A stretch of DNA of 64,000 nucleotides from contig JAXHTI010000001.1 of assembly GCA_034190045.1 (NCBI GenBank), positions 2,658-66,657 on the forward strand, read 5' to 3'. The DNA is from Pseudomonadota bacterium (GTDB lineage Bacteria; Pseudomonadota; Gammaproteobacteria; UBA6429; Thiohalophilaceae). Position numbers and translations under genes: made by a program. The notes under the pieces are model-generated. The model ran no database searches. It was not told the origin of the DNA and saw only the letters and a list, made by a program, of their open reading frames with translations. Positions 19,325-62,275 of this stretch are shown here, piece after piece (the stretch's first letter is position 1; each line of letters starts with the position of its first letter).

Positions 19325-19446
19325 AACGCAGAGGGTATGACAATGTTGAATTTTGAATGTTAAATTTTGAATTAATAAAGAATTCATAATTCAAAACTCA
19401 AAATTATTCAGCTTTGCGTTCTTTGCGTCTCCGCGTCCTCTGCGTT
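19325..19446. repeat. Nested periodic palindrome: 9-mer outer arms enclosing 7-mer inner arms
   Basis: Outer AACGCAGAGG ... CCTCTGCGTT; inner AATGTTG/AATTTTG units facing ATTCATA/ATTCAAA units. Confidence 0.85.
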
Positions 19447-19460
19447 GATGATCAGAAAAT

Positions 19461-20594
19461 TTAATCAGTGAGCATTTTGACGGTAACGGTGGCGATGTCG
19501 GTGATGTGGCTGTCGTCTTCCAGTTTTTGGCGTACTTCTTCCTGCCCCTGTTTGATTTCTTTTCGGTAATCCTGGTCTTCCAGCAGGCGTGTGAGCTCCG
19601 TTGCGATTGCTTGCGGCGTGGCGTCGTTTTGTATCAGCTCGGCGACGATTCGGCGCTGGGCGACGATGTTGCACAGGGCCAGATGATCGATCTTGAGCAT
19701 ACGTTTGACGATGTGATAGGTCAGCCAGGCTACCCGGTTGATGACGACCATGGGAATGCCCATCAAGGCAATTTCCAGAGTTACCGTACCGGAGACGGTG
19801 ACGATCGCGTCGCTGGCCTGCATGGCGTCATAAGGTCGATGTTCTATATAGTGGATATCCAGTTCATGTTCCGGCATGCTGTCGCGGATCAATGCCGGGT
19901 TAAGCGTTGAAGCGATAGGCAGAACAAACTGGAGTTCCGGTCGCTGTTGCTGTAACAGGCGGGCCGTATCGATTATGACCGGTAACAGTCGTTTGATTTC
20001 ACTGCGCCGACTACCGGGGAACAGGCCGATGACTGGCCGGCCCGGATCCAGCCCGAATTCACGTAATAAAGTATCACGATCGGCGCTGGCTTTGACTTCG
20101 TGGGCGAGGGGATGTCCGACATAGGTGACCGGTACACCGTGGCGGGCATAAAAGTCCACTTCAAAAGGAAATACAACGGCCATTTTGTCGACCAGTTGCT
20201 GGATTTTCTTCACGCGCCCCTGACGCCATGCCCATATCTGCGGGCTTATGTAATACAGCACCCTTACACCACATTCTTTGGCGGTGCGTGCCAGGCGCAG
20301 GTTGAATTCGGGATAATCGGTCAGAATCAGCAGGTCCGGCGGGTCGCTGCGCAGAATATCGCGCATCCGGTTGAGTGCGCCGAAGATGACCTTGCGATGG
20401 GCGAAGACTTCAATCAGCCCCACGACAGCCAGCTCGGAAGACTCCACCAGAATCTCCACGCCGGCCTTGCGCATGGCACTGCCCCCGATACCGAAAAACC
20501 GGGTATCCGGGCGTTGCTGTTTAACACCCTCGACCAGCTTGGCGGCATGGAGATCACCCGAGGCCTCTCCGGCTATGATCATGACCCGTTTCAA
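19461..20594 (-). CDS. lpxB: Lipid-A-disaccharide synthase
   Basis: IIAGEASGDLH, DYPEFN, YYISPQIWAWR, VGHPL, LFPGSR, SGTVTLE. Confidence 0.97.
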   Translation of the reverse strand: MKRVMIIAGEASGDLHAAKLVEGVKQQRPDTRFFGIGGSAMRKAGVEILVESSELAVVGLIEVFAHRKVIFGALNRMRDILRSDPPDLLILTDYPEFNLRLARTAKECGVRVLYYISPQIWAWRQGRVKKIQQLVDKMAVVFPFEVDFYARHGVPVTYVGHPLAHEVKASADRDTLLREFGLDPGRPVIGLFPGSRRSEIKRLLPVIIDTARLLQQQRPELQFVLPIASTLNPALIRDSMPEHELDIHYIEHRPYDAMQASDAIVTVSGTVTLEIALMGIPMVVINRVAWLTYHIVKRMLKIDHLALCNIVAQRRIVAELIQNDATPQAIATELTRLLEDQDYRKEIKQGQEEVRQKLEDDSHITDIATVTVKMLTD

Positions 20595-20604
20595 TGCGCG
20601 ACTC

Positions 20605-21693
20605 TCAGACTGACTGGATAACGTCGATGATCTGGTCGATCTGATTGTCTTTTAGTTCCGGGTAGATCGGCAAGGATATGCATCGGGAAGCGACCTGTTC
20701 GGTGACCGGTAATTTGACGTCCTTGCAGATATCGGCAAAGACTTTTTGCTGATGCAGGGGGACCGGGTAATAAATTGCCGAGGCAATCTCGTTATCAGCC
20801 AGTTTTTTCATTACCACATCGCGCTGGTCAGTCAGCACGGTATATTGATGATAGACATGAGTACCTTTGCCATCCTCGTGTGGCGGCGTTACCACGCTAC
20901 CGGCCAGGCCTTTTGTATAACGGTGTGCGACACGACGGCGTTCCTGGTTGTACTTCGGCAGGTGCTTGAGTTTGGCGCGCAATACCACCGCCTGCAGTTC
21001 GTCAAGGCGGCTGTTGTAGCCGACAACATCGTGATAATAGCGTTCCTTGCTGCCATGGTTGCGCAGCATGAGCAACATGTCGGCCAGGGTATTGTCATTG
21101 GTGGTGATCATGCCACCATCGCCGTAACACCCGAGATTCTTGCTGGGGAAAAAACTGTGCGCGCCGGCCAGACCAATACCACCGGTCATTGTGCCTTCAA
21201 TATCGGCGCCAAAGGACTGGGCACAATCTTCGATGACCTTCAGGTTATGCTTGTTCGCCAGTGCCATGATGGCATTCATGTCAGCCGGCTGGCCAAACAG
21301 GTGTACCGGCAAAATAGCACGTGTCCTGTCGCTAATGGCTGCTTCGACAAGTTCAGGGTCCAGGTTATAGGTATCCGGACGAATATCCACATAGACCGGA
21401 ATAGCGCCGACATAGCGAATCGCTTCGGCCGTTGCAATGAAGGTAAAAGCGGAGGTAATAACCTCGTCACCCTCACCAATGCCGGCAGCGACCAGTGACA
21501 GGTGCAGGGCATCGGTGCCGGAGGCGCAGCTGATGGCATGTTTGACACCCAGATAATCCGCGGCATCGGCCTCGAAGCCTTTAACATTCGGTCCGAGAAT
21601 AAAGCTGGTTTTTTCAAATGTTTCGGCAAAACCCTGCTCGATTTCAGCTTTTAGGGTCTGGTATTGCTGTTTCAGGTCAACCATCGGGATCAT
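20605..21693 (-). CDS. gnnB: DegT/DnrJ/EryC1/StrS PLP aminotransferase, GnnB-like
   Basis: SGTDALHL, IEDCAQSFGA, SFFPSKNLGCYGDGG, GYNSRLDELQA; lies between a Gfo/Idh/MocA gene and lpxB. Confidence 0.8.
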   Translation of the reverse strand: MIPMVDLKQQYQTLKAEIEQGFAETFEKTSFILGPNVKGFEADAADYLGVKHAISCASGTDALHLSLVAAGIGEGDEVITSAFTFIATAEAIRYVGAIPVYVDIRPDTYNLDPELVEAAISDRTRAILPVHLFGQPADMNAIMALANKHNLKVIEDCAQSFGADIEGTMTGGIGLAGAHSFFPSKNLGCYGDGGMITTNDNTLADMLLMLRNHGSKERYYHDVVGYNSRLDELQAVVLRAKLKHLPKYNQERRRVAHRYTKGLAGSVVTPPHEDGKGTHVYHQYTVLTDQRDVVMKKLADNEIASAIYYPVPLHQQKVFADICKDVKLPVTEQVASRCISLPIYPELKDNQIDQIIDVIQSV

Positions 21694-21728
21694 GTAAGGA
21701 TTACCTCAATTCGTGCGGTTGGGAACGA

Positions 21729-22667
21729 TCAGTTTTCTGATAATTGCCGGTTGATTTCAAAGGCGGTTTCCAGTGCGCGCAGGCCGTCGGCGCCGTTGAT
21801 AACGGGTCTGGCGTCGGTATTGATGGCCTGTAGAAAAGCACCGATTTCACTTAACAGGGCATCGCCCTGATCAAAGGCATGTTCTTCACTATCGATTTCG
21901 GCCACACCGGGATACATTTCGCCCTTGCCCTTGCGGTGAATGCCCAGTTGCTTGTTCTGAAAATCGATGGTGATGTAAGCGTCCGACTGGAAAATTCGCA
22001 TACGCCGTTCACTTTTCATGCTGATTCGGCTGGCCGTAACATTGGCGACACAGCCATTTTCAAATTCCAGACGCACATTGGCGACATCGATTTCGTCCGA
22101 GAGTACCGGCACGCCGCTGGCATGAATCGCTGTGACCGGCGAGCCAACAAAATCAAGAATGATATCGATATCATGAATCATCAGATCCAGAACGACGTTG
22201 ACATCGGCGCCACGCGGGTTAAAAGGCGCGATACGATGCGATTCGATAAACAGCGGTTCGACCAGCACATTTTCCAGCGCCATGACGGCCGGGTTAAAGC
22301 GTTCCAGATGGCCGATCTGAAATTTCAGATTATTGCGTTCGGCTATCTCCACCAGCTCGCGGCCCTGCTCCAGAGTGGAGGTGATCGGCTTTTCGAGCAG
22401 CACATGCACACCGTTGTCGAGAAACGTTTTCGCTACTTCGTAATGCTTCTGGGTAGGCACAACGATACTGACCGCATCCACCTTGCCAATCAGATCGTGA
22501 TAGTCATCGAATACGTCAACGCCGTGTTCACTGGCAATGGCCTGGGCGACATCACGACTGGTGTCACAGACACCGATCAGTTGCGAGGCGGGGAGCTGGG
22601 CGTATTTCTGGGCGTGGAATTTTCCGAGGTAACCGACACCTATGACGGCGGTTTTGAGTGTTGTCAT
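21729..22667 (-). CDS. gnnA: Gfo/Idh/MocA NAD-dependent oxidoreductase, GnnA-like
   Basis: AVIGVGYLGKFHA, HVLLEKP, GHLERFNPA, DLMIHDIDI; start MTTLK at 22667 (ORF open from 22793). Confidence 0.8.
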   Translation of the reverse strand: MTTLKTAVIGVGYLGKFHAQKYAQLPASQLIGVCDTSRDVAQAIASEHGVDVFDDYHDLIGKVDAVSIVVPTQKHYEVAKTFLDNGVHVLLEKPITSTLEQGRELVEIAERNNLKFQIGHLERFNPAVMALENVLVEPLFIESHRIAPFNPRGADVNVVLDLMIHDIDIILDFVGSPVTAIHASGVPVLSDEIDVANVRLEFENGCVANVTASRISMKSERRMRIFQSDAYITIDFQNKQLGIHRKGKGEMYPGVAEIDSEEHAFDQGDALLSEIGAFLQAINTDARPVINGADGLRALETAFEINRQLSEN

Positions 22668-22839
22668 TAAAAATAACTCTGTTGCGGTTGGCAGGTCAGC
22701 GGTTCGCGGTAAAATGACGCGGCGGACGAGGCCGGGCGGCGGCGAGCCGGAAATATAATTGACAATATTCGCATTTTTAACCAGTAAATTCAATTAGATA
22801 AGGCGTTATTTGCGCACCTGAACAAAGGAAAATCGGCCC

Positions 22840-23430
22840 TTGGACACAGATTGGACATTTACTCTGCAACAGGAACGACTGGCCGGGCTGGATGAGGTGG
22901 GGCGTGGTCCACTGGCCGGGCCGGTCGTGGCGGCGGCGGTCATTCTGGATCCGGCCAGACCGGTGGAGGGCTTGCTGGACTCCAAGCGGCTGAACGAATC
23001 GCGACGGGAACAGCTGGCGATCCAGATTCAGGAACAGGCCCTGGCCTGGGCCGTGGGGCGGGCCGAGGTGGAGGAAATCGACCGGCTCAATATCCTGCAG
23101 GCCAGTTTGCTGGCCATGCAGCGGGCCGCCGCCGCGCTCGACCCCACGCCGCTGGAGGCGCTGGTGGACGGCAATCGCTGTCCCGAACTGGCCTGCCCGA
23201 GCCGGGCGGTGATCAAAGGGGATGACTGCGTGCCGGCTATCATGGCCGCTTCGATCCTGGCCAAGGTGAGCCGGGATCGGGAAATGATCCTGCTGGGGGA
23301 ACAGTATCCCGGTTACGGACTGGAACAGCACAAGGGCTATCCGACCCGGGCCCATATTGCCGCCTTGCAGAGCCTGGGCGTCACCGAGATCCACCGCCGC
23401 AGCTTCGGGCCCGTGCGAAAACTTCTGTAA
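22840..23430 (+). CDS. rnhB: Ribonuclease HII
   Basis: [46 protein letters not shown]. Confidence 0.97.
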
Positions 23431-23589
23431 ACTAAGGTTGGCAGACAGCAGTCGGTGGATTGGGGCTGTTTTTCTCGTTCCTCATCATCAGGTCCTGGCG
23501 GCCTGAATATTTGTTTTCCTGTCACAAACCGGGTATAAAATTGATCCAGGCACAATAATCGATAAAACGGTTCGGGGCAGGAGAACGTG

Positions 23590-24159
23590 ATGTCGTCGTT
23601 ACCTTTGATTCTTCGATTGGATATCAATGGTCAGCCGGTTAACTGGGTTCCCTGGGAGGAGGCGGCCTGTCTCTATTCCCGGGGGCGGGTGGCCTGGACG
23701 GCCGGGGAACATATGTTCCAGTTGCACGGGGGACACAGCCGCCTGACCGGTGAACAGAGCCTGCTTGAAATCAATTCCATCATCGCTGTCCACGGCGAAA
23801 ACCGGGCGCTCAAACATCACACCACGCCGCCGTTGAGTAACCGGGAACTGTTCCGGCGGGATCGGCATACCTGCCTCTATTGCGGTCATGAATTTCGCGA
23901 TCTGCTGCTGACCCGGGACCACGTCAAGCCACTTTCGCGGGGCGGCCGCGATCACTGGCGCAATGTGGTCACGGCCTGCAAGCGCTGTAACGCCCGCAAG
24001 GGCAGCCGTTCACCGGAACAGGCCAACATGCCGTTACTTGCCATCCCCTATGTCCCCAATCTGGCCGAATACCTGGTATTGCGCAATCGCCGCATCCTGG
24101 CCGATCAGATGGAATTTCTGCGCGTCCAGTTCAAACAGATGGACCGCGACTGGATGTAG
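23590..24159 (+). CDS. HNH endonuclease family protein
   Basis: LFRRDRHTCLYCG, LTRDHVKPLSRGG, NVVTACKRCNARKG. Confidence 0.9.
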   Translation: MSSLPLILRLDINGQPVNWVPWEEAACLYSRGRVAWTAGEHMFQLHGGHSRLTGEQSLLEINSIIAVHGENRALKHHTTPPLSNRELFRRDRHTCLYCGHEFRDLLLTRDHVKPLSRGGRDHWRNVVTACKRCNARKGSRSPEQANMPLLAIPYVPNLAEYLVLRNRRILADQMEFLRVQFKQMDRDWM

Positions 24160-24182
24160 CCTCCCTCGAAGTGATCATTCTT

Positions 24183-24286
24183 AACCACCGAAGACACTGA
24201 AAACACCGAACTCACCGAAGATAATTGACCGGGTATTATAGACAGCCGGTTTCGGTGTATTCAGTGTTTTCGGTGTTTCAGTGGTT
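24183..24286. repeat. Periodic palindrome with 9-mer units (CACYGAANN)
   Basis: Four left units CACCGAAGA/CACTGAAAA/CACCGAACT/CACCGAAGA, mirrored by TTCGGTG/TTCAGTG units; ends AACCAC ... GTGGTT. Confidence 0.85.
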
Positions 24287-24416
24287 TCTCCCATAAGCTT
24301 CTCGATAGCCCCGTCTAACCCGCTTAAACAGGGGGCATGGCGATTGGGGGACAAAATTCGCAGCTGACGGGTGTCAAGTCTTGCACTCCTGACGAATTGA
24401 TCTGACACTTTGCGCC

Positions 24417-27878: not shown

Positions 27879-27895
27879 TGGGGCTTCTGGAAACT

Positions 27896-28113
27896 AAACG
27901 CAGAGGCCGCGGAGGCGCGGAGACGCGGAGGAAAACAATGATTATTAAGTTCTGCTTATGGCAGTTGTCTGTCGCATAGCAGGAGCATCTGCGCATTCAA
28001 CCTGGCTTGTTGGTTGTCCTTATGATGAAGACCTTTCCCTGTCTAAGGTCGGATGAACATATACTTACACAATCATTTCTCCGCGCCTCTGCGACTCCGC
28101 GTCCTCCGCGTTT
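27896..28113. repeat. Periodic palindrome with 9-mer CGCRGAGNN arms around a ~150-bp spacer
   Basis: Left arm AAACGCAGAGGCCGCGGAGGCGCGGAGACGCGGAGG (27896-27931); right arm CTCCGCGCCTCTGCGACTCCGCGTCCTCCGCGTTT (28079-28113). Confidence 0.85.
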
Positions 28114-28232
28114 TATCCCAGTACCCCAGGCTGATGAAAACGGGACCCGGGTCGCGGTTCGGGTGTATACAGGCGGCCGGATTCGCTATACTATTCAGTC
28201 AATTAGCGCCAATCTGACCCGATGACACCATT

Positions 28233-29189: not shown

Positions 29190-29211
29190 TTCCCGACACG
29201 CCTTCCCCGAC

Positions 29212-30558: not shown

Positions 30559-30602
30559 CGCGCTGTAAAGATTGAATCGATCACCGAAAACAACGACAAT
30601 AA

Positions 30603-35385: not shown

Positions 35386-35468
35386 TCCGCGAATAAACGC
35401 GAATAGACGCAAATAAAAAATTATGGTTACGAAATACCAATTTGCGTCCATTCGCGCTCATTTGCGGA
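35386..35468. repeat. Periodic palindrome with 10-mer units (CGCRAAT)
   Basis: TCCGCGAATAAACGCGAATAGACGCAAAT ... ATTTGCGTCCATTCGCGCTCATTTGCGGA. Confidence 0.85.
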
Positions 35469-36536: not shown

Positions 36537-36607
36537 TCCGCCAATGCACGCGAATTAACGCAAATTGCCTGATTAATTATTTGCGTTAATTCGCGTTCAT
36601 TAGCGGA
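36537..36607. repeat. Periodic palindrome with 10-mer units (same type as 35386)
   Basis: TCCGCCAATGCACGCGAATTAACGCAAAT ... ATTTGCGTTAATTCGCGTTCATTAGCGGA. Confidence 0.85.
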
Positions 36608-36646
36608 CCAGAAATCCCATTAAGCATTCAGTCGTATCAGCAGAAT

Positions 36647-36673
36647 GTCAGGTTGCGTCAAGCGCAACCTGAC
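36647..36673. repeat. REP-like perfect hairpin between convergent truD and MCP genes (possible terminator)
   Basis: GTCAGGTTGCG-tcaag-CGCAACCTGAC. Confidence 0.55.
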
Positions 36674-36692
36674 CTGCTCCTTCATCCAGCTT

Positions 36693-45477: not shown

Positions 45478-45520
45478 CTGAGCGTTTGAGCTGACTTGAA
45501 CGCCTTGAGCGCCTTGAACG
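45478..45520. repeat. Half periodic element (TTGARCG units, ~9-bp period)
   Basis: CTGAGCGT-TTGAGCTGAC-TTGAACGCC-TTGAGCGCC-TTGAACG; no facing arm. Confidence 0.5.
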
Positions 45521-46338: not shown

Positions 46339-46752
46339 ATGTCAGTGCTACAGAATGAACTTGAAGCCTACCTCCACGAACACATCCCGCTGTCAAAAGC
46401 GATGGCGGTGTCGGTGGTGGGGCCGGGGCCGGAGAATATTGTATTGAGTGCACCACTGGCGCCGAATATCAATCATCGCGAGACGGTGTTTGGCGGTAGT
46501 GCGTCGGCGCTGGCGACGCTGGCGGCGTGGTCGTTGTTGCACGTCAGGCTTCGCAGTGAGGGTTTCACCAGTCGCCTGGTCATTCAGCGCAATATGATGG
46601 AGTATGATTTGCCGATTGATGGGACGTTTACGGCGCGGGCGTCGATGGAGGACGTGACGCAGTGGTCAAGGTTTGTGCGAATGCTGTCGCGCCGTGGCAA
46701 GGCCCAAGTGGCGGGGTCAGGTCTTGCGTTTTGCCTTATAGGTAGAAAATGA
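46339..46752 (+). pseudogene. 3'-truncated duplicate of the YiiD_C/thioesterase gene
   Basis: Near-identical to 47476-47842 up to 46705, then runs into a GGGGTCAGGTCTTGC motif. Confidence 0.8.
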
Positions 46753-46804
46753 CCAGAAGTAGCTGGGTCAAGTCTTGCGTTTTGTCTTATAGGTAGAAAA
46801 TGAC
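46714..46804 (+). repeat. 40-bp direct repeat x2 (51-bp period)
   Basis: GGGTCAGGTCTTGCGTTTTGCCTTATAGGTAGAAAATGAC (46714-46753) and GGGTCAAGTCTTGCGTTTTGTCTTATAGGTAGAAAATGAC (46765-46804). Confidence 0.85.
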
Positions 46805-53015: not shown

Positions 53016-53219
53016 GCCATTACCCTTTGCAAATGCCGCAATTCCCCGGATATGAATAGCCTGCTAGCCGCTTGTTTGCCGGGTAGCCAGGCTGAACCAC
53101 GCCAATCATTCGCTGTCTGATAAGTATCATTGTATAGTCGCTTGCACCGCAGGACGGTGCATGGCAGCTTGGCTGTGCCGCTATAATAACGGTCTGTAAA
53201 CCACAATAATAACGAGGTT

Positions 53220-54341: not shown

Positions 54342-54344
54342 AGC

Positions 54345-57300
54345 ATGTTTCATGCGATGATCCATCGCGGCACCCTGATTGCCGTGGCCGTGCTGATTGT
54401 GGCGGTACTGGGCGTGGTGGCCGCCATGCGGATTCCGGTGCAGATGATTCCGGACCTGGAGGTACGCACCATTACTATCCGCACCTCCTGGCCGGGCGCG
54501 ACGCCGCAGGATGTGGAAAAAGAGATCATCATCGAGCAGGAAGAGTACCTGCGCAGCGTACCGGGACTCGAACGACTTATCTCGTCGTCCTCGTTCGGGC
54601 AGGCTTCCATTGAACTGGAATTTCCTTTCGGCATCGATCTCAACCAGACACTGATCGAGATAAATAATGCCCTGTCACAGGTGCCGTCGTATCCCGAGAA
54701 CGTGGACGAGCCGCGCATCTATGCCTCGTCCTTCTCCAGCAACTCTTTTATGTATTTCCGCGTGATGCCACTGGACGGCAATCCACGCAACCTCGATATG
54801 GTGATGATGCAGGATTACGTGGATGACAATGTCCGCGTGCGCATGGAGACCGTGCCGGGGGTCTCCATGGTCAATGTTTACGGCGGGGCGGAGCGTCAGA
54901 TCCAGATCCTGCTCGATCCCGCCAGGCTGGCCGAGCGGGATATCACCATCGCCCAGGTGCGCGATGCCATTCGCGAGCGAAACCGCGACGTCTCGGGCGG
55001 CGAACTGGAATCGGGCAAGCGCCGGTATCTGCTGCGTACCATCGGTCGCTTTGCCGATCTTGATGATATGCGCAGGCTGATTCTCGAGCGACGCGGGGAT
55101 GCCATCATTCGCCTTGGCGATGTGGCTACGCTGCAACTGGATCACTACAAGCTGAGCCGGCTTTCCTATACCGATGGCAAGCCGGTCATCGGCATGTCGG
55201 TGCGCCGTCAGCCTGGCTCCAATGTCATCGAAATCAAAGAAGGCATGCTGGAACAGATGGCGGCCATCAACCGCGAGGTACTCAAACCGGCCGGCATGCA
55301 GATGCGCCTGGTGGCCGATGATGCCGGTTATGTCCAGTCCTCGGTACGGAATGTGTGGACCAATCTTGCCCTGGGTGCGTTGCTGGCCTGCGCGGTGATG
55401 TACCTGTTTTTGCGTTCCGGGCGCGCGACCCTGGTCGGGATCATGGGTATCCCGCTGTGTACTATTGCCGCGTTTATCGGTTTGCAGCTGACCGGCCGTA
55501 CCATCAACGTGATCTCGCTGGCCGGGATCGCCTTTGCCATCGGTATGACGCTGGATAACAGCATCGTGGTACTGGAGAGCATCGAGCACGAACGTCGACG
55601 TGGGCTGGATCGGCTCAAGGCGGCGGTTACCGGGGTACAGAAGGTGTGGCCGGCGGTGCTGGCCTCCACGCTGACCACGGTCATGGTATTTTTGCCGATC
55701 CTGTTTATTGAAGAGGAGGCGGGGCAGCTCTATTCGGATATTGCCATCGCCATCGCCGCATCGATTCTCGCCTCCATGCTGGTGGCGATCACGGTGATTC
55801 CCTCGGCGGCGGCCCGTTTGCACCTGGGCGACAGTCAGCGCAGCGTGACGCAAAGTGCGCGGCAGGTGCGCCAGTGGGTACTCGATTCGGTGGGACGGCG
55901 CATCGGCGATCCCGGTCAGCGGACGCGGGTGATAGCCGTGACCCTTGTCCTCAGCCTCGGTATCTACTTGTTGCTGACACCTCCGGCGGAATATCTGCCC
56001 GAAGGCGAGGAGCCCAAAACCTTCGCCTCGCTGAGTTCACCGCCCGGTTATAACCTCGAGATCATGAGTCGGATCGGTTTCGAGCTGCAGGATTATTTTC
56101 TGCCGTTTCTCAAGCATTCACCGGAGCAATTTGATAACGGTGAGACCGAAGTGCCGGCGATGAAATACCTGAACCTGAGCATTCGGCCCTCGGGGATCCG
56201 GATCATCAGCGAGCCGAAAAAACCCTCGCACATCAAACCGTTGATGGATGCGATCGATGCCAAATACCGTGAGTATCCGGCCATGCGCCCGTTTGTCACG
56301 CGCGGCTCGATCATTACCAGCAATTCCGGCGGCACGCGCAGTGTCAACCTGGATATTTCCGGGCCCGATCTGGCCTCGGTCTACAAAGTGGCCAACAAGG
56401 CCTACCAACGGGCCGGTGAGATCTTCGACTCGCCACGCCTGCGTGCCAATCCCTCGACATTGTCACTCTCGCAACCACTGGTTGAAATCCGTCCCAAATG
56501 GGACCGGGCCAGTGAAGTGGGCATGACCACCCAGGAACTGGGTTATACCGTCTCGGCGTTAACCGACGGTGCCTTTGTCAGTGAGTTCTTTCTGGACGAT
56601 GACAAGATCGATATGTACCTGTACAGCAAGGATGGCGTGAATGCCACGCTGGACAGCCTGGATCAAAAACAGATCTATACGCCGGTCGGCGCGATCCTGC
56701 CGTTTTCCGCGGTCGCCGAGATCGTCGAAACCGTGGATACCAATAATATCCGGCGTCTCAACGGTCGGCGTACCGTGACCCTGAATATCATTCCGCCGGA
56801 TGACGTGGCGCTGGAGATCGGCGTACAGCGTGTACGCGAGGAACTGGTGCAATATCTGCGCAAAACGGGAGAAGTCCCCTCCAGTATCAGCATGAGTATC
56901 TCCGGCGCCAGCGACGAACTGGACGCGACGCGCGAGGCGCTGACGGCCAATTACATTGTCGCGGTAGTGATCATTTATCTGTTGCTGGTCGCCATCTTTA
57001 CTCACTGGGGTTATCCCTTGCTGATCATGGCGACCATTCCGCTTGGCGTCAGTGGCGGTATCTTCGGTCTGTGGTTGTTCAACTTTATCGGCAGCGGTTT
57101 TCCGCTGATCGGCCTGTCGGCACTGACGCTGCCGTTTGACATGATTGCCATGCTGGGCTTTTTGATCCTGATGGGGACAGTGGTCAACAACCCGATCCTG
57201 ATCGTGCATCAGTCGATCGTGAACCTGCGTGAGGAGGGGATGTCCGCCCGCGAGGCGGTAGCCAATGCAGTGGAAACCCGACTGCGGCCGATTGCCATGT

Positions 57301-57494
57301 CCACCCTGACCACGGTCTTCGGCCTGGCACCGCTGGTCTTTTTGCCCGGCGCGGGCACCGAACTCTATCGGGGAGTGGGCGTGATCGTCATGTTCGGCCT
57401 GATGGGCACCGCACTGGTCACTCTCACCTTCCTGCCGGCATTGACCGTAATGGTTCTGAAATTCGTCGAGGAACGTCAGCAAAAAGCGGCTTAA
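54345..57494 (+). CDS. RND efflux permease (AcrB/AcrD/AcrF family)
   Basis: PVQMIPDL, WPGATPQDVE, GMTLDNSIVVLE, GTVVNNPIL, RLRPIAMST. Confidence 0.95.
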   Translation: MFHAMIHRGTLIAVAVLIVAVLGVVAAMRIPVQMIPDLEVRTITIRTSWPGATPQDVEKEIIIEQEEYLRSVPGLERLISSSSFGQASIELEFPFGIDLNQTLIEINNALSQVPSYPENVDEPRIYASSFSSNSFMYFRVMPLDGNPRNLDMVMMQDYVDDNVRVRMETVPGVSMVNVYGGAERQIQILLDPARLAERDITIAQVRDAIRERNRDVSGGELESGKRRYLLRTIGRFADLDDMRRLILERRGDAIIRLGDVATLQLDHYKLSRLSYTDGKPVIGMSVRRQPGSNVIEIKEGMLEQMAAINREVLKPAGMQMRLVADDAGYVQSSVRNVWTNLALGALLACAVMYLFLRSGRATLVGIMGIPLCTIAAFIGLQLTGRTINVISLAGIAFAIGMTLDNSIVVLESIEHERRRGLDRLKAAVTGVQKVWPAVLASTLTTVMVFLPILFIEEEAGQLYSDIAIAIAASILASMLVAITVIPSAAARLHLGDSQRSVTQSARQVRQWVLDSVGRRIGDPGQRTRVIAVTLVLSLGIYLLLTPPAEYLPEGEEPKTFASLSSPPGYNLEIMSRIGFELQDYFLPFLKHSPEQFDNGETEVPAMKYLNLSIRPSGIRIISEPKKPSHIKPLMDAIDAKYREYPAMRPFVTRGSIITSNSGGTRSVNLDISGPDLASVYKVANKAYQRAGEIFDSPRLRANPSTLSLSQPLVEIRPKWDRASEVGMTTQELGYTVSALTDGAFVSEFFLDDDKIDMYLYSKDGVNATLDSLDQKQIYTPVGAILPFSAVAEIVETVDTNNIRRLNGRRTVTLNIIPPDDVALEIGVQRVREELVQYLRKTGEVPSSISMSISGASDELDATREALTANYIVAVVIIYLLLVAIFTHWGYPLLIMATIPLGVSGGIFGLWLFNFIGSGFPLIGLSALTLPFDMIAMLGFLILMGTVVNNPILIVHQSIVNLREEGMSAREAVANAVETRLRPIAMSTLTTVFGLAPLVFLPGAGTELYRGVGVIVMFGLMGTALVTLTFLPALTVMVLKFVEERQQKAA

Positions 57495-57505
57495 TAATAT
57501 GATTT

Positions 57506-57669
57506 TCACCGCCGAGGCGAAAACAATGTTGAGTTTTGAATGTTGAATTTTGAATTACACAGCACACTGCCATTCATAATTCATAATTCATAATTCATAA
57601 TTCATAATTCATAATTCAACATTCAAAATTATTTCTCCGGGGCTTTGCGCCTCCGCGATCTCCGCGTTA
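57506..57669. repeat. Nested periodic palindrome (second copy of the 19325 type) with (ATTCATA)6
   Basis: Inner left ACAATGTTGAGTTTTGAATGTTGAATTTTGAATT differs from the 19340 copy at 2 positions; six perfect ATTCATA units at 57572-57613; outer right arm GCTTTGCGCCTCCGCGATCTCCGCGTT. Confidence 0.88.
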
Positions 57670-57697
57670 TATTTCCAGAGAACCAGAGAAGAGCGTT

Positions 57698-58123
57698 TCA
57701 GATCATCATCAACGCCGCGACGACATTACGTCCCTCGGCCACCAGGATATTGAAAGTCCGGCAGGCGGCGGCAGTATCCATCACTTCAAGACCCACGCCG
57801 GCTTGCTGGACCCGGGCCATGGTTTCACCGTTGGGAAAGCGCAGTTGCGCACCGGTACCCAGCAGGATCAGCTCCGGCTCGTAGGCGAGCAGTGTGGTGA
57901 GGTGTTCGGGTTGCAGTTCGTCGTAGGTTTGCGGGGCCCAGTCACAGGTGAGCTGTTCGCGGCTGATGATAAAACTGTCGTTGAACCGGGCGTTGCCTTC
58001 CTCGTCCTGCTCGATATTCACCACACCACGCAGGGGATGCCAGGGGGGAATGACGACCGTGATTTGACCGGTGTCGTAAGCGCGAATGGTGAGTCCGCCG
58101 ACCTGTTCGAGGTTGAATTTCAT
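57698..58123 (-). CDS. Mth938/DUF498-like domain protein
   Basis: PELILLGTG, GLEVMDTAAACRTFNILVAEGRNVVAAL. Confidence 0.92.
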   Translation of the reverse strand: MKFNLEQVGGLTIRAYDTGQITVVIPPWHPLRGVVNIEQDEEGNARFNDSFIISREQLTCDWAPQTYDELQPEHLTTLLAYEPELILLGTGAQLRFPNGETMARVQQAGVGLEVMDTAAACRTFNILVAEGRNVVAALMMI

Positions 58124-58234
58124 GCGATGTCCTGCTGGGCAGTGGGTCAGGCCCTGACAGCTTCGGCCAGGTGCCGGGATGACGTCAAGTCCGCTGCGCT
58201 AAAGCCGGCTAAGTCCCTGAATTTTACGGGAACA

Positions 58235-58264
58235 TTGACAGTCTACCGGCGAACCCGTTAATGT
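58235..58264 (+). promoter_or_regulatory. Candidate sigma70 promoter for alaC-hom-thrC
   Basis: TTGACA-N18-TAATGT. Confidence 0.4.
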
Positions 58265-58339
58265 TACGAGCTTTGCGACGAGACGGGGCAGGCGCGCGGG
58301 CCCCGGGTCATTAACCCTTTTTCTTATCGGATTGCCCAC

Positions 58340-59551
58340 TTGATAGACGATTTTCCGAGAATCAAACGGCTGCCGCCGTATGTCTTTAATATTGTTGGTG
58401 AATTGAAGGCAGCGGCCCGGGCCCGTGGTGAGGACATCATCGACTTTGGCATGGGCAATCCCGATCAGCCGACGCCGCAACACATCGTCGACAAGCTGGT
58501 CGAGGTGGCCCAGCGCCCCGATACCCATCGCTATTCCCTGTCGCGCGGCATCCCGCGCCTGAGGCGCGCCATTTGCCGCTGGTACCAGCAGCGTTTCGAC
58601 GTGGAGCTGGATCCCGACTCGGAAGCCATCGTCACCATCGGTTCCAAGGAAGGCCTGGCCCATCTGGCGCTGGCCACGGTCGGGCCGGGCGATGCAGTCC
58701 TGGTGCCCAATCCGGCTTATCCGATCCATCCCTATGGTTTTATCATCGCCGGTGCCGATATTCGTCATGTGCCGCTGGTGCCCGGGATCGATTTCTTCGA
58801 AGGACTGGAGAAGGCGATCAAGGATTCCTGGCCCAAGCCCAAGATGCTGGTCCTCAATTTCCCCGGCAATCCGACGACCCAGTGCGTGGATCTCGACTTT
58901 TTCGAGAAGGTGGTGGAGATCGCCCGTGAGCACCAGATATGGGTGGTGCACGACATCGCCTATGCCGACATCGTTTTCGACGGCTACAAGGCTCCGTCGA
59001 TTCTGCAGGTCAACGGCGCCAAGGACGTGGCGGTGGAGTTTTATTCCCTCTCCAAGAGTTACAACATGCCGGGCTGGCGGGTCGGTTTCATGGTCGGAAA
59101 TCCGACGCTGGTCGCGGCGCTGGCCAGGATGAAATCCTATCTCGATTACGGCATGTTCACGCCCATCCAGGTTGCCTCGATCACCGCCCTGGAAGGGCCG
59201 CAGGATTGCGTGACGGAAATTGTCGATCGTTATCGTTCCCGTCGCGATGTGTTGTGCGACGGGCTCAAATCCGTGGGCTGGGAGATCGAAAAACCCAAAG
59301 GCACCATGTTTGTCTGGGCGCCGATCCCCGAGGAATACAAAGACATAGGCTCACTGGAGTTTTCAAAATTACTGTTACAGGAAGCCAAGGTGGCGGCCTC
59401 GCCCGGCATCGGTTTCGGGGATTACGGGGATGATCATGTGCGTTTTGGCTTGATCGAAAACGAACATCGTACGCGCCAGGCGATCCGGGGTATCCGGGAC
59501 ATGCTGCGCCGGGATCCCGATGAACTCAAGAAACAGGCCTCCGGCAAATAA
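58340..59551 (+). CDS. alaC: Alanine transaminase (class I/II PLP aminotransferase)
   Basis: [52 protein letters not shown]. Confidence 0.92.
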
Positions 59552-59572
59552 TCATAAAGAGGAAGCAAGTCA

Positions 59573-60886
59573 GTGGAAGCGGTTAAAGTAGGCTTATTGG
59601 GACTGGGAACCGTCGGTGGCGGGACCGTGAATGTATTGCAGCGCAACGCCGGCGAGATTGCCCGGCGTGCAGGCCGGGGCATCCGGATTACCCATGCCGC
59701 GGCACGGGATCTGGACAAACCGCGCATTTGCGACACCACCGGTATCGAACTGACGACCGATCCTCAGCAGGTCGTCAACAATCCCGAGATCGAGATCGTC
59801 ATCGAGCTGATCGGCGGCGATGGCCTGGCAAAGGACTTGGTCATGCAGGCCATCGAGCAGGGCAAACACGTGGTCACCGCCAACAAGGCGCTGATCGCCA
59901 AGCACGGTAACGAAATTTTCGCCGCGGCACAGAAAAAAGGCGTGATGGTCGCCTTCGAAGCGGCCGTCGCCGGTGGTATACCTATTATAAAGGCGATCCG
60001 CGAGGGCCTGGCCGGTAACCAGATCCAGTGGCTGGCCGGTATCATCAACGGCACCGGTAACTTTATCCTGACCGAGATGCGCGACAAGGGTCGCGAATTC
60101 GAGGATGTCCTGAAAGAAGCCCAGGAACTGGGTTATGCCGAGGCCGATCCCACCTTCGACGTGGAAGGCATCGATGCGGCACACAAGCTGACGATTCTTT
60201 CTTCGATCGCCTTCGGTACGCCGTTGCAGTTCGAAGCCACCTATACCGAGGGAATCAGTAACATCACGCGCGAGGATGTGGCCTATGCCGAAGAGCTGGG
60301 CTATCGCATCAAACACCTGGGCCTGACCCGACGCACCGACAAAGGTGTGGAGCTGCGCGTGCACCCGACCCTGATTCCCGAGCGTCGCCTGATTGCCAAC
60401 GTCGATGGCGTAATGAACGCCGTGCTGGTTATGGGCGATGCCGTCGGTCCGACCTTATATTATGGTGCCGGTGCCGGCGACGAGCCGACCGCGTCGGCCG
60501 TGGTCGCCGACCTGGTCGACGTGGTACGGGTACTGACCACGGATCCTGAAAACCGCGTGCCGCACCTGGCCTTCCAGCCCGATGCGATCACCGATTTGCC
60601 GATCCTGAACATCGACGAAGTGCAAACCGCCTACTATCTTCGCATGCAGGCCGAGGACAAACCCGGCGTCCTGGCCGAAGTGACCCGGATCCTGGGCGAG
60701 CGCGATATCAGCATCGAGGCGATTATCCAGAAAGAACCGATGGAAGGCTCCGACAAGGCCAATGTCATCATGCTGACCCACGTGGTGCGCGAGAGCAAAA
60801 TGAACGAAGCGATTGCCAAGATCGAAGCCATGAAATCAATTCACGGCAACGTCACCCGCATCCGCGTCGAATCTTTAAAGGCATGA
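59573..60886 (+). CDS. hom: Homoserine dehydrogenase with ACT domain
   Basis: GLGTVGGG, VVTANKAL, FEAAVAGGIP, GYAEADPTFDVEG. Confidence 0.97.
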   Translation: MEAVKVGLLGLGTVGGGTVNVLQRNAGEIARRAGRGIRITHAAARDLDKPRICDTTGIELTTDPQQVVNNPEIEIVIELIGGDGLAKDLVMQAIEQGKHVVTANKALIAKHGNEIFAAAQKKGVMVAFEAAVAGGIPIIKAIREGLAGNQIQWLAGIINGTGNFILTEMRDKGREFEDVLKEAQELGYAEADPTFDVEGIDAAHKLTILSSIAFGTPLQFEATYTEGISNITREDVAYAEELGYRIKHLGLTRRTDKGVELRVHPTLIPERRLIANVDGVMNAVLVMGDAVGPTLYYGAGAGDEPTASAVVADLVDVVRVLTTDPENRVPHLAFQPDAITDLPILNIDEVQTAYYLRMQAEDKPGVLAEVTRILGERDISIEAIIQKEPMEGSDKANVIMLTHVVRESKMNEAIAKIEAMKSIHGNVTRIRVESLKA

Positions 60887-60898
60887 TGTTGCGAATTT

Positions 60899-60970
60899 AA
60901 CGCGGAGGACGCAGAGCCGCGGAGAAGAAATTTATTACTCCGCGCCTCCGCGACTCTGCGAACTCCGCGA
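60899..60970. repeat. Periodic palindrome with 9-mer CGCRGAGNN arms
   Basis: AACGCGGAGGACGCAGAGCCGCGGAG ... CTCCGCGCCTCCGCGACTCTGCGAACTCCGCG. Confidence 0.85.
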
Positions 60971-61031
60971 TTGAAATTGATTGTTTAAAAATGGGTAATG
61001 TTGAACTGCCCTGTACTGAGGAATAGACACA

Positions 61032-62171
61032 ATGCCATTTCGTACCCGTTATACCGGTTTGATTGACAAGTACCGTGACCGCCTGCCGGTGCATGATGAC
61101 ACCCGCATCATTAGCCTGGGTGAGGGCAATACGCCGTTGATTCGCCTGAATAATATCCCGAGGGTGCTGGGCAAGGACGTGGATATCTACGTCAAGTACG
61201 AAGGGCTGAATCCGACCGGTTCGTTCAAGGATCGGGGTATGACCATGGCGGTGACCAAGGCGGTGGAAGAGGGCAGCAAGGCGATTATCTGCGCTTCCAC
61301 CGGTAATACTTCGGCGGCCGCCGCGGCCTATGCCGCCCGTGCCGGGATTACCGCGTTTGTTCTGATTCCCGATGGCAAGATCGCGCTGGGCAAGCTGGCC
61401 CAGGCAATGATGCACGGTGCCACCGTTATCCAGATCAAGGGTAATTTCGATAAAGGAATGCAACTGGTCAAGGAAGTGGCGACAGAAGCCCCGGTTACGA
61501 TCGTCAACTCGATTAACCCCTATCGCCTGCAGGGCCAGAAAACCGCGGCGTTCGAGATCGTAGAGGAGCTGGGTCGTGCCCCGGACTTCCATTGTATTCC
61601 GGTGGGCAATGCCGGCAATATCACCGCGCACTGGATCGGCTATTGCGAGTATTCCTCGGCTTCGGGTGATCATGTCACCGGCGCATGCTCCTTCTGTCAT
61701 GGCCATTGCAAGTATGCCGGTGGCGCCGTTGTCGGCAACCGTCCGAAGATGGTCGGTTATCAGGCTTCCGGCAGTGCTCCGTTCATGCGAGGCAAAATGG
61801 TGGATGATCCCGATACCCTGGCCACCGCGATTCGCATTGGCCACCCGCAGAGCTGGGACATGGCCTGGAAGGTCAAGGAAGAATCCGGTGGCTGGTTCGA
61901 TGAATGCAGCGATGATGAAATCCTCGCTGCACAGAAACTGCTGGCCGAAAAAGAAGGCGTATTCTGTGAGCCCGCTTCGGCCACGTCACTGGCCGGCGCC
62001 ATGCGTGACATTCAAAGTGGCAATATCCCCGAAGGCAGTACCATCGTCTGTACCCTGACCGGGCATGGCCTGAAAGATCCGGATATTGCAATCAAACAGA
62101 GCACGCCGGTACAGGCTGTCGATGCCACGCTCGAAGAAGTCAAGAAGGCAATTCTGGCGAATATGGCATAA
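61032..62171 (+). CDS. thrC: Threonine synthase with a Cys/His-rich insert
   Basis: LGEGNTPL, EGLNPTGSFKDRG, CASTGNTS, PVGNAGN, EPASA, CTLTGHGLKD. Confidence 0.95.
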   Translation: MPFRTRYTGLIDKYRDRLPVHDDTRIISLGEGNTPLIRLNNIPRVLGKDVDIYVKYEGLNPTGSFKDRGMTMAVTKAVEEGSKAIICASTGNTSAAAAAYAARAGITAFVLIPDGKIALGKLAQAMMHGATVIQIKGNFDKGMQLVKEVATEAPVTIVNSINPYRLQGQKTAAFEIVEELGRAPDFHCIPVGNAGNITAHWIGYCEYSSASGDHVTGACSFCHGHCKYAGGAVVGNRPKMVGYQASGSAPFMRGKMVDDPDTLATAIRIGHPQSWDMAWKVKEESGGWFDECSDDEILAAQKLLAEKEGVFCEPASATSLAGAMRDIQSGNIPEGSTIVCTLTGHGLKDPDIAIKQSTPVQAVDATLEEVKKAILANMA

Positions 62172-62176
62172 AACAA

Positions 62177-62275
62177 AGTCGGCAGAGGGCAGTTGGCAGT
62201 CGGCAGTGATAAATCGGAAATCGGAAATCGGAAATCTGAAAACGACTGATGTCCCGGGTTTCAGACTTCCGACTT
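62177..62275. repeat. Periodic element with two 7-mer arrays (AGTYGGC, AAATCGG) and a short facing arm
   Basis: AGTCGGC-AGAGGGC-AGTTGGC-AGTCGGC, then (AAATCGG)3-AAATCTG, mirrored by TTTCAGA-CTTCCGA. Confidence 0.8.

What the first reader, a model, noticed from the sequence alone, without database searches (positions are those of the whole stretch)
19325..62275. Family of intergenic periodic palindromes (7-, 9-, 10-bp tandem units in inverted arms): candidate uncharacterised mobile system
Seen: at least eight elements in 64 kb (19325, 24183, 27896, 35386, 36537, 57506, 60899, 62177, plus a half element at 45478). They share an architecture but not a sequence: 3-6 tandem degenerate units face their reverse complement across an AT-rich spacer, always between core genes and near a stop codon. 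Units are CGCRGAGNN, CACYGAANN, CGCRAATNN, AATKTTG/ATTCAWA and AGTYGGC/AAATCGG. They differ from classical GTAG-type REPs, CRISPR and intrinsic terminators. From my recollection of other genomes (not verified here), such arms flank small GxxExxY (TIGR04256) and four-helix-bundle/IVS (TIGR02436, Avd-like) genes. Inference: these are empty, non-autonomous versions of a nuclease/helper-gene cassette that inserts into and excises from housekeeping operons.
Basis: partly seen in the sequence, partly recalled or inferred. Interest (0 to 1): 0.75.

Follow-up and report, generated by a model that had tools for sequence, protein, structure and literature searches.

The report
Gene-less hairpin cassettes with tandem-repeat arms
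The window holds seven clear and two weaker copies of a genome-wide family of small hairpins whose arms are tandem 7-10-base units; elsewhere the same arms enclose one of two small genes, as in the intervening sequences of 23S rRNA, and I found no paper that makes this link.

Summary
Seven of the nine listed elements fold as long hairpins (z -4.2 to -9.3). The elements at 62177 and 45478 are mainly direct arrays.

Genome-wide there are about 120 such palindromes. A repeat-pairing script found 63 inverted array pairs, against 0 in shuffles. They lie a median of 15 nt after a stop codon.

- All five GxxExxY or four-helix-bundle (4HB, PF05635) genes of this genome lie between such arms.
- So do nearly all 41 such genes in the genus.
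- So do 21 of 23 GxxExxY loci, and by eye most of the 27 4HB loci, sampled across Gammaproteobacteria. Two of the 4HB loci are true 23S rRNA intervening sequences.

In this material, GxxExxY genes have arms of 8-10-nt units with a CRCNRAG-type core. 4HB genes have 7-nt units.

Among congeners the same junction can be empty, hold arms only, hold arms with a different interior, or hold arms plus gene. At carA|carB one genome keeps the arms, leader and trailer of a GxxExxY cassette with the gene deleted.

The cargo genes are under purifying selection (dN/dS 0.06-0.20).

None of the window's own junctions carries a cargo gene in the congeners where it could be read. No cargo remnants are detectable in the loops. 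How the elements move is unknown.

Verdict: these are gene-less members of an IVS-like hairpin-cassette family.

The parts
19325..19446 (.). Composite element between lpxA (+) and lpxB (-). Outer CGCRGAG-type arms: one unit on the left at 19325-19334, four units on the right at 19412-19446. They enclose an AATKTTG heptamer palindrome with arms at 19342-19373 and 19381-19405.
   Evidence: (z -4.2). In congeners the outer arms persist with 1-5 units. The interior is the AATKTTG palindrome, or in G006 a 1.2-kb insert.
24183..24286 (.). CACYGAANN 9-mer palindrome between an HNH-domain gene and dnaE. Arms at 24183-24221 and 24248-24286.
   Evidence: z -7.7. It is absent in G001, where the gap is 50 nt. 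It has decayed in G003, G004 and G007 (z -0.4 to -1.4). The same unit type flanks a GxxExxY gene in G002 (L110).
27897..28112 (.). CGCRGAG 8-mer arms at 27897-31 and 28079-112 around a 147-nt non-coding loop, between dnaE and accA.
   Evidence: The loop is shared with G004 and G007. G003 and G006 have unrelated loops, G001 has an AATKTTG palindrome, and G005 has no element. The loop holds no cargo remnant.
35386..35468 (.). CGCRAATNNA 10-mer palindrome between ispF and truD. Arms at 35386-35414 and 35440-35468.
   Evidence: z -6.7. The same junction holds CGCAGAG arms with a 190-nt loop in G003 and G007, CGCAGAG arms with AATKTTG in G001, G006 and G008, and nothing in G005 (5-nt gap). The 10-mer arm type carries a GxxExxY gene at carA|carB in G004 and G002.
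36537..36607 (.). CGCRAATNNA 10-mer palindrome 5 nt after the truD stop. Arms at 36537-36565 and 36579-36607.
   Evidence: z -9.3. G003 has CGCGGAG arms with a roughly 450-nt interior at this junction.
45486..45517 (+). Unpaired direct array of about 3.4 units of TTGARCGCC (9-mer).
   Evidence: z -1.2, not a palindrome. It was not followed further.
57510..57668 (.). Composite element after an RND efflux permease gene. The outer left arm is a remnant at 57510-57519 and the outer CTCYGCG arm is at 57635-57668. They enclose an AATKTTG / ATTCATA heptamer palindrome at 57525-57557 and 57572-57630.
   Evidence: ATTCATA x 8.4; z -4.2.
60899..60969 (.). CGCRGAG 8-mer palindrome between hom and thrC. 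Arms at 60899-60924 and 60938-60969, with a 13-nt loop.
   Evidence: z -6.9. G001 has the same arms plus an AATKTTG palindrome in the loop. G006 has degenerate arms plus about 130 nt. A more distant MAG (L018) has CGCAAAG arms at the same junction, and other relatives have 19-69-nt plain gaps.
62177..62285 (.). Heptamer arrays between thrC and the next gene. AGTYGGC x 4.4 at 62177-62207 is direct only. AAATCGG x 4.4 at 62211-62241 has a weak complement at 62259-62285.
   Evidence: z -1.1. The junction is hypervariable in G001 and G006, where other heptamers reach 7-8 copies. GCAGTYG arms flank 4HB genes in this genome (C100) and in the genus.

Best explanation
What they are: the window's elements are gene-less members of a family of small hairpin cassettes. 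A complete cassette is one small gene, transcribed in the direction of the host operon, between two inverted arrays of a short degenerate unit.

Two unrelated cargo genes occur:
- A GxxExxY protein of the PD-(D/E)XK nuclease fold. In this material its arms are 8-10-nt units with a CRCNRAG-type core. That matches the window elements at 19325 (outer arms), 24183, 27897, 35386, 36537, 57510 (outer arms) and 60899.
- A PF05635 four-helix-bundle protein, the 23S-rRNA 'IVS protein' family. In this material its arms are 7-nt units. That matches the element at 62177 and possibly the inner AATKTTG palindromes.

Shown here:
- The association between arms and cargo.
- The position of the elements just after stop codons.
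- Presence or absence of whole cassettes among congeners.
- Exchange of the interior, or of the whole intergenic cassette, at one junction.
- One gene-deleted derivative that keeps arms, leader and trailer.
- Purifying selection on the cargo genes.
- The same protein family and the same heptamer-array arms in true 23S rRNA intervening sequences.

Inferred, not shown:
- The paired arms form a stem that makes the insert tolerable inside operons. In RNA it would be an RNase III substrate, as in the IVS. In DNA it would be a hairpin or cruciform.
- The repeated units are iterated recognition sites for the cognate cargo protein.
- That protein drives or guides spread and exchange.
- Arms-only copies arise by loss of the interior and then drift, decay or are rewritten.
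For: - Every cargo gene in this genome lies between arms: 3 GxxExxY and 2 4HB.
- The same holds for nearly all 41 cargo genes in the 9 genomes of the genus.
- In a sample of the class, 21 of 23 GxxExxY loci have inverted arms and, by eye, most of 27 4HB loci have heptamer arms. L182 and L184 lie inside 23S rRNA.
- After setting aside four known cargo genes, 3 of 585 similar-sized control ORFs score. Two are housekeeping genes lying between two separate hairpins and the third looks like chance.
- carA|carB has five states. G000 and G005 share a homologous plain spacer. G004 and G002 have 10-mer arms plus gene. G007 has the same arms, leader and trailer without the gene. G001 and G006 have an empty CACCAAGA element. 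G003 has a heptamer mini-hairpin.
- At the C146 site the 4HB cassette is present in four genomes. Five genomes have a clean empty site where the two genes overlap in GTGA.
- Window junctions: arms persist while interiors differ among congeners, in a pattern that does not follow relatedness.
- trpE|trpG cargo of G000 is 80% identical to that of the distant G005 and 47% to that of the close G004. The whole stop-to-start interval follows the cargo, but the first 560 nt of trpG do not.
- Cargo dN/dS is 0.06-0.20.
- E34, D74, E84 and K86 are invariant. The AlphaFold model has pLDDT 94 and a PD-(D/E)XK fold.
Against: - No window junction carries a cargo gene in the congeners where it could be read. 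Six of the eight junctions could be compared.
- No loop in the genome shows a cargo remnant in a six-frame HMM search. Loops are mostly unrelated to each other. So most empties are not recent decay products of filled copies.
- No target-site duplication or defined insertion scar was found.
- Stem mismatches show no bias towards G-U on the transcribed strand: 42 against 34. There is therefore no positive sign of selection on an RNA stem.
- Some orthologous hairpins decay.
- Only 1-4 GxxExxY genes and 0-6 4HB genes accompany about 120 empties per genome. AATKTTG, AAATCGG and TTGARCGCC units have no cargo-bearing copy in the genus.
- No recombinase is associated with the cassettes.
Confidence: 0.68

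Rival explanations
1. Arms first. The tandem-armed palindromes are REP-like host or selfish structural repeats that act as mRNA 3'-end stabilisers or attenuators. The small genes, like insertion sequences, are secondary insertions that target hairpin loops. On this view the empties were never cassettes.
For: - Empties outnumber filled copies about 25 to 1.
- Loops hold no cargo remnants.
- Other things do nest in the loops: AATKTTG palindromes, GTAG-type REPs and a 1.2-kb insert in G006.
- The bias towards gene 3' ends and against divergent gaps resembles that of REPs.
Against: - Whole cassettes, arms included, are present or absent at carA|carB and at the C146 site. The empty alleles show no arms.
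- G007 keeps cassette-specific leader and trailer sequence, so that copy is a deletion derivative.
- The arm period tracks the cargo type: 7 nt against 8-10 nt.
- Orthologous hairpins decay in some lineages, which argues against a conserved host function.
Confidence: 0.17
2. Neutral by-products. Replication slippage expands short units, and hairpin-templated repair copies one arm onto the other. There is no mobility and no function.
For: - Unit number and unit sequence vary between close relatives and change in both arms.
- Arrays reach 7-8 copies at thrC|next in G006.
- Stem mismatches are symmetric between strands.
Against: - A few unit families recur about 120 times and always in the same arm order.
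- The same unit families recur across families of the class, next to the same two gene families.
- Clean presence or absence at several junctions.
- There are none in shuffles.
Confidence: 0.08
3. REPINs mobilised by a RAYT (an IS200/IS605-like Y1 transposase).
For: The genome has two Y1_Tnp matches. The elements are extragenic palindromes at gene 3' ends.
Against: - The RAYT-like gene on C331 is flanked by its own GTAG-type REP (TTGTAGGAGGGGCTTTCAGCCGCGAC), not by tandem-unit arms.
- The tandem-armed elements lack the GTAG head.
Confidence: 0.03
4. Fixed intrinsic terminators or attenuators.
For: They are stable hairpins just after stop codons, and they are enriched between convergent genes.
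Against: - No T tract follows the full stems, and terminator-like hits do not exceed shuffles.
- Many lie between co-directional genes that are 130-350 nt apart.
- They are not fixed. The same junction is empty, different or decayed in congeners.
Confidence: 0.04

Closest known systems
ORF-bearing intervening sequences (IVS) of 23S rRNA (Leptospira, Coxiella burnetii; S23p / PF05635 ORF; PMC4990558)
   Same: - The protein family is the same (PF05635/TIGR02436).
- The design is the same: a small ORF between inverted termini that pair.
- Two loci in my class sample (L182, L184) are such IVSs inside 23S rRNA, and their arms are heptamer arrays like those of the cassettes in operons.
   Different: - The window elements lie between protein-coding genes and not in rRNA. 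They carry no ORF.
- Most have 8-10-nt units tied to a different gene family (GxxExxY).
- RNase III excision, which is shown for the IVS, is untested here.
REP / REPIN populations with their RAYT gene
   Same: - There are many short extragenic palindromes at gene 3' ends.
- A few copies of a protein gene are flanked by the same repeat.
- Populations are specific to a lineage.
   Different: - There is no GTAG head.
- The arms are tandem arrays of degenerate units.
- The associated genes are a PD-(D/E)XK-fold protein or a four-helix bundle, not a Y1 transposase.
- The genome's own RAYT has a separate REP.
Heptamer repeat arrays described as such: Xanthomonas GGGAATC (70-75 convergent pairs per genome; PMC4692102), Beggiatoaceae and cyanobacterial TAACTGA (PMC4679880), and cyanobacterial STRR (from my own knowledge: Mazel et al. 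1990)
   Same: - They are intergenic tandem 7-nt units, often mixed types.
- In Xanthomonas they are explicitly noted as inverted pairs able to form stem-loops.
- Their length varies between relatives.
   Different: - Those papers treat them as G-quadruplex or translational-regulatory repeats.
- In the passages I read, they do not link them to four-helix-bundle or GxxExxY genes, or to the IVS.
Free-standing homing endonuclease genes (intronless homing, phage T4 seg/mob genes; from my own knowledge)
   Same: - A small nuclease-fold gene is wedged between conserved genes.
- The same junctions recur across distant genomes: trpE|trpG, carA|carB, rpsU|tRNA.
- The cargo phylogeny is incongruent with the host phylogeny.
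   Different: - No co-conversion of flanking trpG was seen.
- The cargo is under lasting purifying selection at fixed sites.
- Inverted tandem arms are not a feature of homing endonuclease genes.
- The second cargo type is not a nuclease.

Membership tests
23S rRNA intervening sequence (IVS) | Inserted in a 23S rRNA helix (25 or 45) | tested here: not met
   All window elements lie between protein-coding genes. True rRNA copies exist in other Gammaproteobacteria (L182, L184).
23S rRNA intervening sequence (IVS) | Inverted termini that pair into a long stem | tested here: met
   z -4.2 to -9.3 for six elements; paired arms of the element at 27897.
23S rRNA intervening sequence (IVS) | Excised from the transcript by RNase III | not testable with these tools
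Stem mismatches show no bias towards G-U on the sense strand.
23S rRNA intervening sequence (IVS) | Optional internal PF05635 ORF | tested here: not met
   There is no such ORF or remnant in the window. It is present between like arms elsewhere in the genome (C100, C294).
REP/REPIN-RAYT | Conserved GTAG head and a single short imperfect palindrome | tested here: not met
   The arms start AACGC, AACCACC or TCCGC and are tandem arrays.
REP/REPIN-RAYT | Cognate RAYT gene flanked by the same repeat | tested here: not met
   The RAYT-like gene on C331 is flanked by a different, GTAG-type REP.
MITE | Target-site duplication and a related autonomous transposon that encodes a transposase | tested here: inconclusive
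   No consistent duplication at filled or empty junctions. No transposase is associated. The cargo genes are not known transposases.
Intrinsic terminator | GC-rich stem followed directly by a T/U tract | tested here: not met
   the full stems are not followed by T tracts, and hits do not exceed shuffles.
CRISPR array | Identical direct repeats separated by unique spacers of similar length | tested here: not met
   The units abut head to tail without spacers and face an inverted copy.
GxxExxY / four-helix-bundle hairpin cassette (working family; no description found in the papers searched) | Inverted arrays of a short degenerate unit of a type that elsewhere encloses the gene | tested here: met
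   CGCRGAG, CACYGAA, CGCRAAT and GCAGTYG arms enclose cargo genes in the genome or genus. AATKTTG, AAATCGG and TTGARCGCC have no such copy there. A loosely similar AT-rich heptamer arm flanks a 4HB gene in G099 (L178).
GxxExxY / four-helix-bundle hairpin cassette (working family; no description found in the papers searched) | Cargo gene present, or demonstrably lost, at the site | tested here: not met
   No cargo gene at the window junctions that could be read in congeners, and no remnant. Loss is shown only at carA|carB in G007.

The most novel reading that the evidence does not exclude
The classical ORF-bearing 23S rRNA IVS, the 'unexplained' heptamer arrays of Xanthomonas, Beggiatoaceae and cyanobacteria, and these REP-like palindromes may all be forms of one widespread class of selfish hairpin cassettes. 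On this reading:
- The arms are iterated binding sites, and their period is set by the cargo protein: 7 nt for the four-helix bundle and 8-10 nt for the GxxExxY nuclease.
- The cargo protein acts on the folded arms to copy, exchange or delete the interior at conserved gene junctions.
- Gene-less copies are maintained or rewritten in trans.
Probability: 0.3. Interest if true: 0.9.

Novelty: new variant of a known kind. Interest (0 to 1): 0.7.

Why it matters
- It would give a common explanation for three long-standing loose ends: the origin and ORF of the 23S rRNA intervening sequences, the function of two very common 'hypothetical' gene families (PF13366 and PF05635), and the abundant tandem 7-10-nt intergenic repeats reported in several phyla.
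- It would define a REP-like repeat population whose helper genes are not transposases.
- These elements rewrite the 3' ends and spacers of housekeeping operons: carA tails differ, stop codons are supplied by arms, and arms are translated as an N-terminal extension. They also appear to break assemblies and can be mistaken for CRISPR arrays or terminators.
- The biochemical tests are simple and can be done with small proteins and oligonucleotides.

Tried and rejected
- **Decayed cargo in loops.** A six-frame HMM search of all loops of 60 nt or more, the window and the syntenic regions of seven congeners found only the intact genes.
- **MITE-like conserved interiors.** An all-against-all BLAST of 74 loops found mostly no similarity, apart from one family of about 140 nt with four members and some nested REPs.
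- **Selection on an RNA stem.** Stem mismatches were 42 G-U on the sense strand against 34 A-C, so there is no bias.
- **Homing-type co-conversion.** Along trpG, G000 stays closest to G002 and G004 from the first 60 nt on.
- **Target-site duplication.** At ispF|truD, TTTCTGATG on the left and TTTCTCAATG on the right are only loosely similar. I do not count this.
- **RAYT link.** Rejected.
- **Rfam.** No family matches at any element.
- **hom|thrC and thrC|next in 80 loci from other genera.** No cargo genes were found. There were many unrelated REP-type palindromes and a few tandem-armed ones.
- **Solved structures.** There is no sequence match for GxxExxY in the PDB. Foldseek gives only weak, generic PD-(D/E)XK hits such as Cas4 SSO0001 and lambda exonuclease (E about 4e-3).
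- **Strict fixed-period scoring.** It under-calls arms whose units alternate between 8 and 9 nt, scoring 13 of 23 loci where 21 of 23 have inverted arms.

Full report
**Observation**

I read every listed place. Each holds tandem degenerate units of the stated kind: CGCRGAGN(N), CACYGAANN, CGCRAATNNA, AATKTTG/ATTCATA, and AGTYGGC/AAATCGG. The repeat tools find the same arrays and arms.

Folded as single strands, six elements have z-scores from -4.2 to -9.3. The element at 27897-28112 has 35-nt arms (16-nt core 94% complementary) around a 147-nt loop. Two items are weaker. At 62177 only the AAATCGG block has a (poor) inverted partner (z -1.1). At 45486 there is an unpaired direct 9-mer array (z -1.2).

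The elements at 19325 and 57510 are composite. An AATKTTG heptamer palindrome sits inside CGCRGAG-type arms. This arrangement recurs in at least 10 of the genome's 13 AATKTTG palindromes.

**More than chance**

The window is C1:2658-66657 of a 3.08-Mb, 331-contig genome with 57% G+C. Pairing Tandem Repeats Finder arrays with an inverted partner within 500 nt gives 63 pairs. Each of four block shuffles gives 0.

An independent census by inverted repeat plus internal periodicity gives 127 elements, about 120 of them credible. They fall into a few unit families:
- CACSAAG: 32
- CTAGNNN: 25
- AATKTTG: 17
- CGCRRAG: at least 9. This is an undercount, because nested copies were merged.
- CGAGGGA/GAGTGCT: 9
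- CGCRAAT: 6
- GCAGTYG: 6
- CACYGAA: 5

There are 364 intergenic arrays of period 7-10.

The elements hug stop codons. The median distance is 15 nt after the stop, against 64 nt before the next start (p = 2e-4). They favour convergent gaps and avoid divergent ones. They are not canonical terminators and match no Rfam family.

**Organism**

This is an uncultured sulfur-oxidiser-like gammaproteobacterium. Its ThrC is 89% identical to that of MAG ES_Gamma_036, and 83-85% identical to those of Thiogranum, Candidatus Venteria and Candidatus Thiodiazotropha.

**Link to the two gene families**

The genome has three GxxExxY genes (TIGR04256/PF13366) and two four-helix-bundle genes (TIGR02436/PF05635). 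All five lie between inverted tandem arms.

In the nine genomes of the genus there are 21 GxxExxY and 20 4HB matches, and nearly all are flanked in the same way. GxxExxY genes have:
- CACCAAGA arms at cusF|cusA
- CGCRGAG arms at trpE|trpG and queE|queC
- CGCAAATNNA arms at carA|carB
- CACYGAANN arms at one site in G002
- CACGAANNN arms at one site in G001

4HB genes have 7-nt units: GCAGTTG, CTAGNGG, CGAGGGA, AGGAGTT, CGCGAGA and AGTACTA.

In 151 genomes spread over the class, GxxExxY occurs in 18. Of 23 loci outside the genus, 21 have inverted arms built of CRCNRAG-type units. 4HB occurs in 26 genomes, and by eye most of the 27 loci I viewed have heptamer arms. Two of them (L182, L184) lie inside 23S rRNA, so they are classical intervening sequences.

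Of 589 control ORFs of similar size in this genome, seven score. Four of these are the known cargo genes. Two are bcp and folA, each lying between two separate complete hairpins. The seventh looks like chance.

The rule of 7 nt for 4HB and 8-10 nt for GxxExxY holds in this material. Earlier notes of this scan report exceptions in other phyla, so I state the rule only for this class.

**Turnover**

I fetched the syntenic region from seven congeners whose DnaE is 94-98% identical where full-length and compared the junctions.

| Junction | State in each genome |
|---|---|
| lpxA\|lpxB | Outer arms in all, with 1-5 units. Interior is AATKTTG, or a 1.2-kb insert in G006 |
| HNH\|dnaE | Element absent in G001 (50-nt gap) |
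| dnaE\|accA | Same loop in the window, G004 and G007. Unrelated loops in G003 and G006. AATKTTG in G001. Nothing in G005 |
| ispF\|truD | 10-mer palindrome (window, G004). CGCAGAG arms plus 190 nt (G003, G007). CGCAGAG plus AATKTTG (G001, G006, G008). 5-nt gap (G005) |
| hom\|thrC | Arms only (window). Arms plus AATKTTG (G001). Degenerate arms (G006) |

These patterns do not follow relatedness. Hairpin quality is not conserved either. The 24183 element has z -9 in the window but -0.4 to -1.4 in G003, G004 and G007.

**Filled and empty sites**

None of the six window junctions that could be compared holds a cargo gene in any congener where it could be read. The junction at 57506 could not be read and the one at 45478 was not examined. 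The converse test, starting from the cargo sites of the relatives, was informative.

At carA|carB:
- G000 and the distant G005 share a homologous plain spacer.
- G004 and G002 have 10-mer arms plus a GxxExxY gene. The left arm supplies the last six codons and the stop of carA.
- G007 has the same arms, the same leader (up to the start codon) and the same trailer, with the gene cleanly missing.
- G001 and G006 have an empty CACCAAGA element.
- G003 has a heptamer mini-hairpin.

At a second site (C146), a 4HB cassette of about 870 nt is present in G001, G002, G006 and G008. In G000, G003, G004, G005 and G007 the two genes overlap in GTGA with no trace of arms.

At a third site (C29), G002's GxxExxY cassette is replaced in G000 by several heptamer arrays. 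Only the first one and a half units of the old arm remain.

**Cargo evolution**

GxxExxY proteins cluster by site. Within trpE|trpG the tree contradicts relatedness. G000's allele is 80% identical to that of the distant G005 and 47% to that of the close G004.

The whole interval from the trpE stop to the trpG start follows the cargo. The first 560 nt of trpG do not. So what is exchanged is the intergenic cassette, with breakpoints at the gene ends.

dN/dS is 0.06-0.20 for both families, so the proteins are functional. GxxExxY proteins keep E34, D74, E84 and K86 invariant. The AlphaFold model is confident (pLDDT 94). Its only structural neighbours are generic PD-(D/E)XK nucleases with weak scores. 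4HB matches PDB entries 2gsc and 2rld by sequence.

**What does not fit a simple story**

- Loops hold no detectable cargo remnants and are mostly unrelated to each other.
- Stem mismatches show no bias towards G-U on the sense strand.
- No target-site duplication was found.
- The RAYT of this genome has its own GTAG-type REP, so these are not REPINs.

**Literature**

- Inverted pairs of GGGAATC heptamer arrays were counted in Xanthomonas, at 70-75 per genome, and discussed as G-quadruplex repeats (PMC4692102).
- TAACTGA direct repeats were described in Beggiatoaceae, cyanobacteria and Bacteroidetes (PMC4679880).
- The Coxiella IVS and its S23p ORF are described as a selfish element (PMC4990558).
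- 23S_rRNA_IVP genes were noticed between cmr3 and cmr2 (PMC3936711).
- PF13366 is listed as a PD-(D/E)XK family of unknown function with multiple transfers (PMC3424549).
- Searches for GxxExxY, PF05635, the TIGR numbers and 'heptamer repeats' with 'four-helix bundle' found nothing that links the arms to the genes.

Earlier notes of this scan describe the same association in many other genomes. I used them as leads only, and every claim above rests on tests made here.

**Conclusion**

It remains unproven that these particular copies once held genes. It also remains unproven that the proteins move them.

The best-supported reading is that they are gene-less members of an IVS-like hairpin-cassette family with two alternative cargo genes. 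The mechanism (stem formation, recognition of the repeated units by the cargo protein, exchange at gene ends) is inference.

Noticed in passing
window 19461-23394: lpxB (19461-20594) and the three ORFs upstream of it lie on the minus strand, so they converge on lpxA. This is not the usual co-directional lpxA-lpxB order. The breakpoint coincides with the composite element at 19325. The arrangement is the same in six congeners.
   Followed up: partly
window 23587-24159: A 190-aa ORF just upstream of dnaE matches only the HNH region of the IscB model (E 1.9e-11). It is a small, conserved HNH-domain gene, 93-96% identical across the genus.
   Followed up: no
window 36639-36681: A separate, classical REP-like hairpin (GTCAGGTTGCG...CGCAACCTGAC) lies next to the 10-mer palindrome. 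The motif recurs about 16 times in the genome and is sometimes nested inside tandem-armed elements.
   Followed up: partly
window 6637-6727: The only Rfam match in the window is t44 RNA (71.6 bits).
   Followed up: no
window 46706-46804: A 51-bp unit is repeated 1.9 times at 91% identity, just after an ORF that ends at 46752.
   Followed up: no
window 7503-7597: An 18-bp coding repeat (AAGAAGAAAACCGCCGCC, about 5 copies) gives a Lys/Ala-rich tract.
   Followed up: no
L113 and L115 (G001, G002), C146-site cassette: The heptamer arm (CGCGAGA type) is read through as a new N-terminal extension of about 40 aa, with a new ATG, on the downstream HAD-type phosphatase gene. The other arm supplies the stop codon of the upstream gene.
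   Followed up: partly
G000 C35:18026-18349 and C294:12137-12888: tRNA genes lie inside or beside CTAGG-type heptamer arrays. The rpsU-[4HB cassette]-tRNA arrangement recurs in other families of the class (L177, L179, L187).
   Followed up: partly
L182, L184 (G056, G143): 4HB genes inside 23S rRNA (true IVSs) have arms made of ACAGAAG-type heptamers. In G056 the ORF has two internal stops.
   Followed up: partly
L093 (G004), dnaE|accA junction: A scaffold gap (a run of N) falls inside the left CGCGGAG arm. These arrays appear to break assemblies. The census in a 331-contig genome is therefore probably an undercount, although only 8 of 482 arrays lie within 60 nt of a contig end.
   Followed up: no
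L085 region (G006), lpxA|lpxB junction: A 1.2-kb insert with a long reverse-strand ORF, which looks like an insertion sequence, sits in the loop of the CGCAAAG-armed hairpin. I did not scan the ORF against protein families.
   Followed up: no
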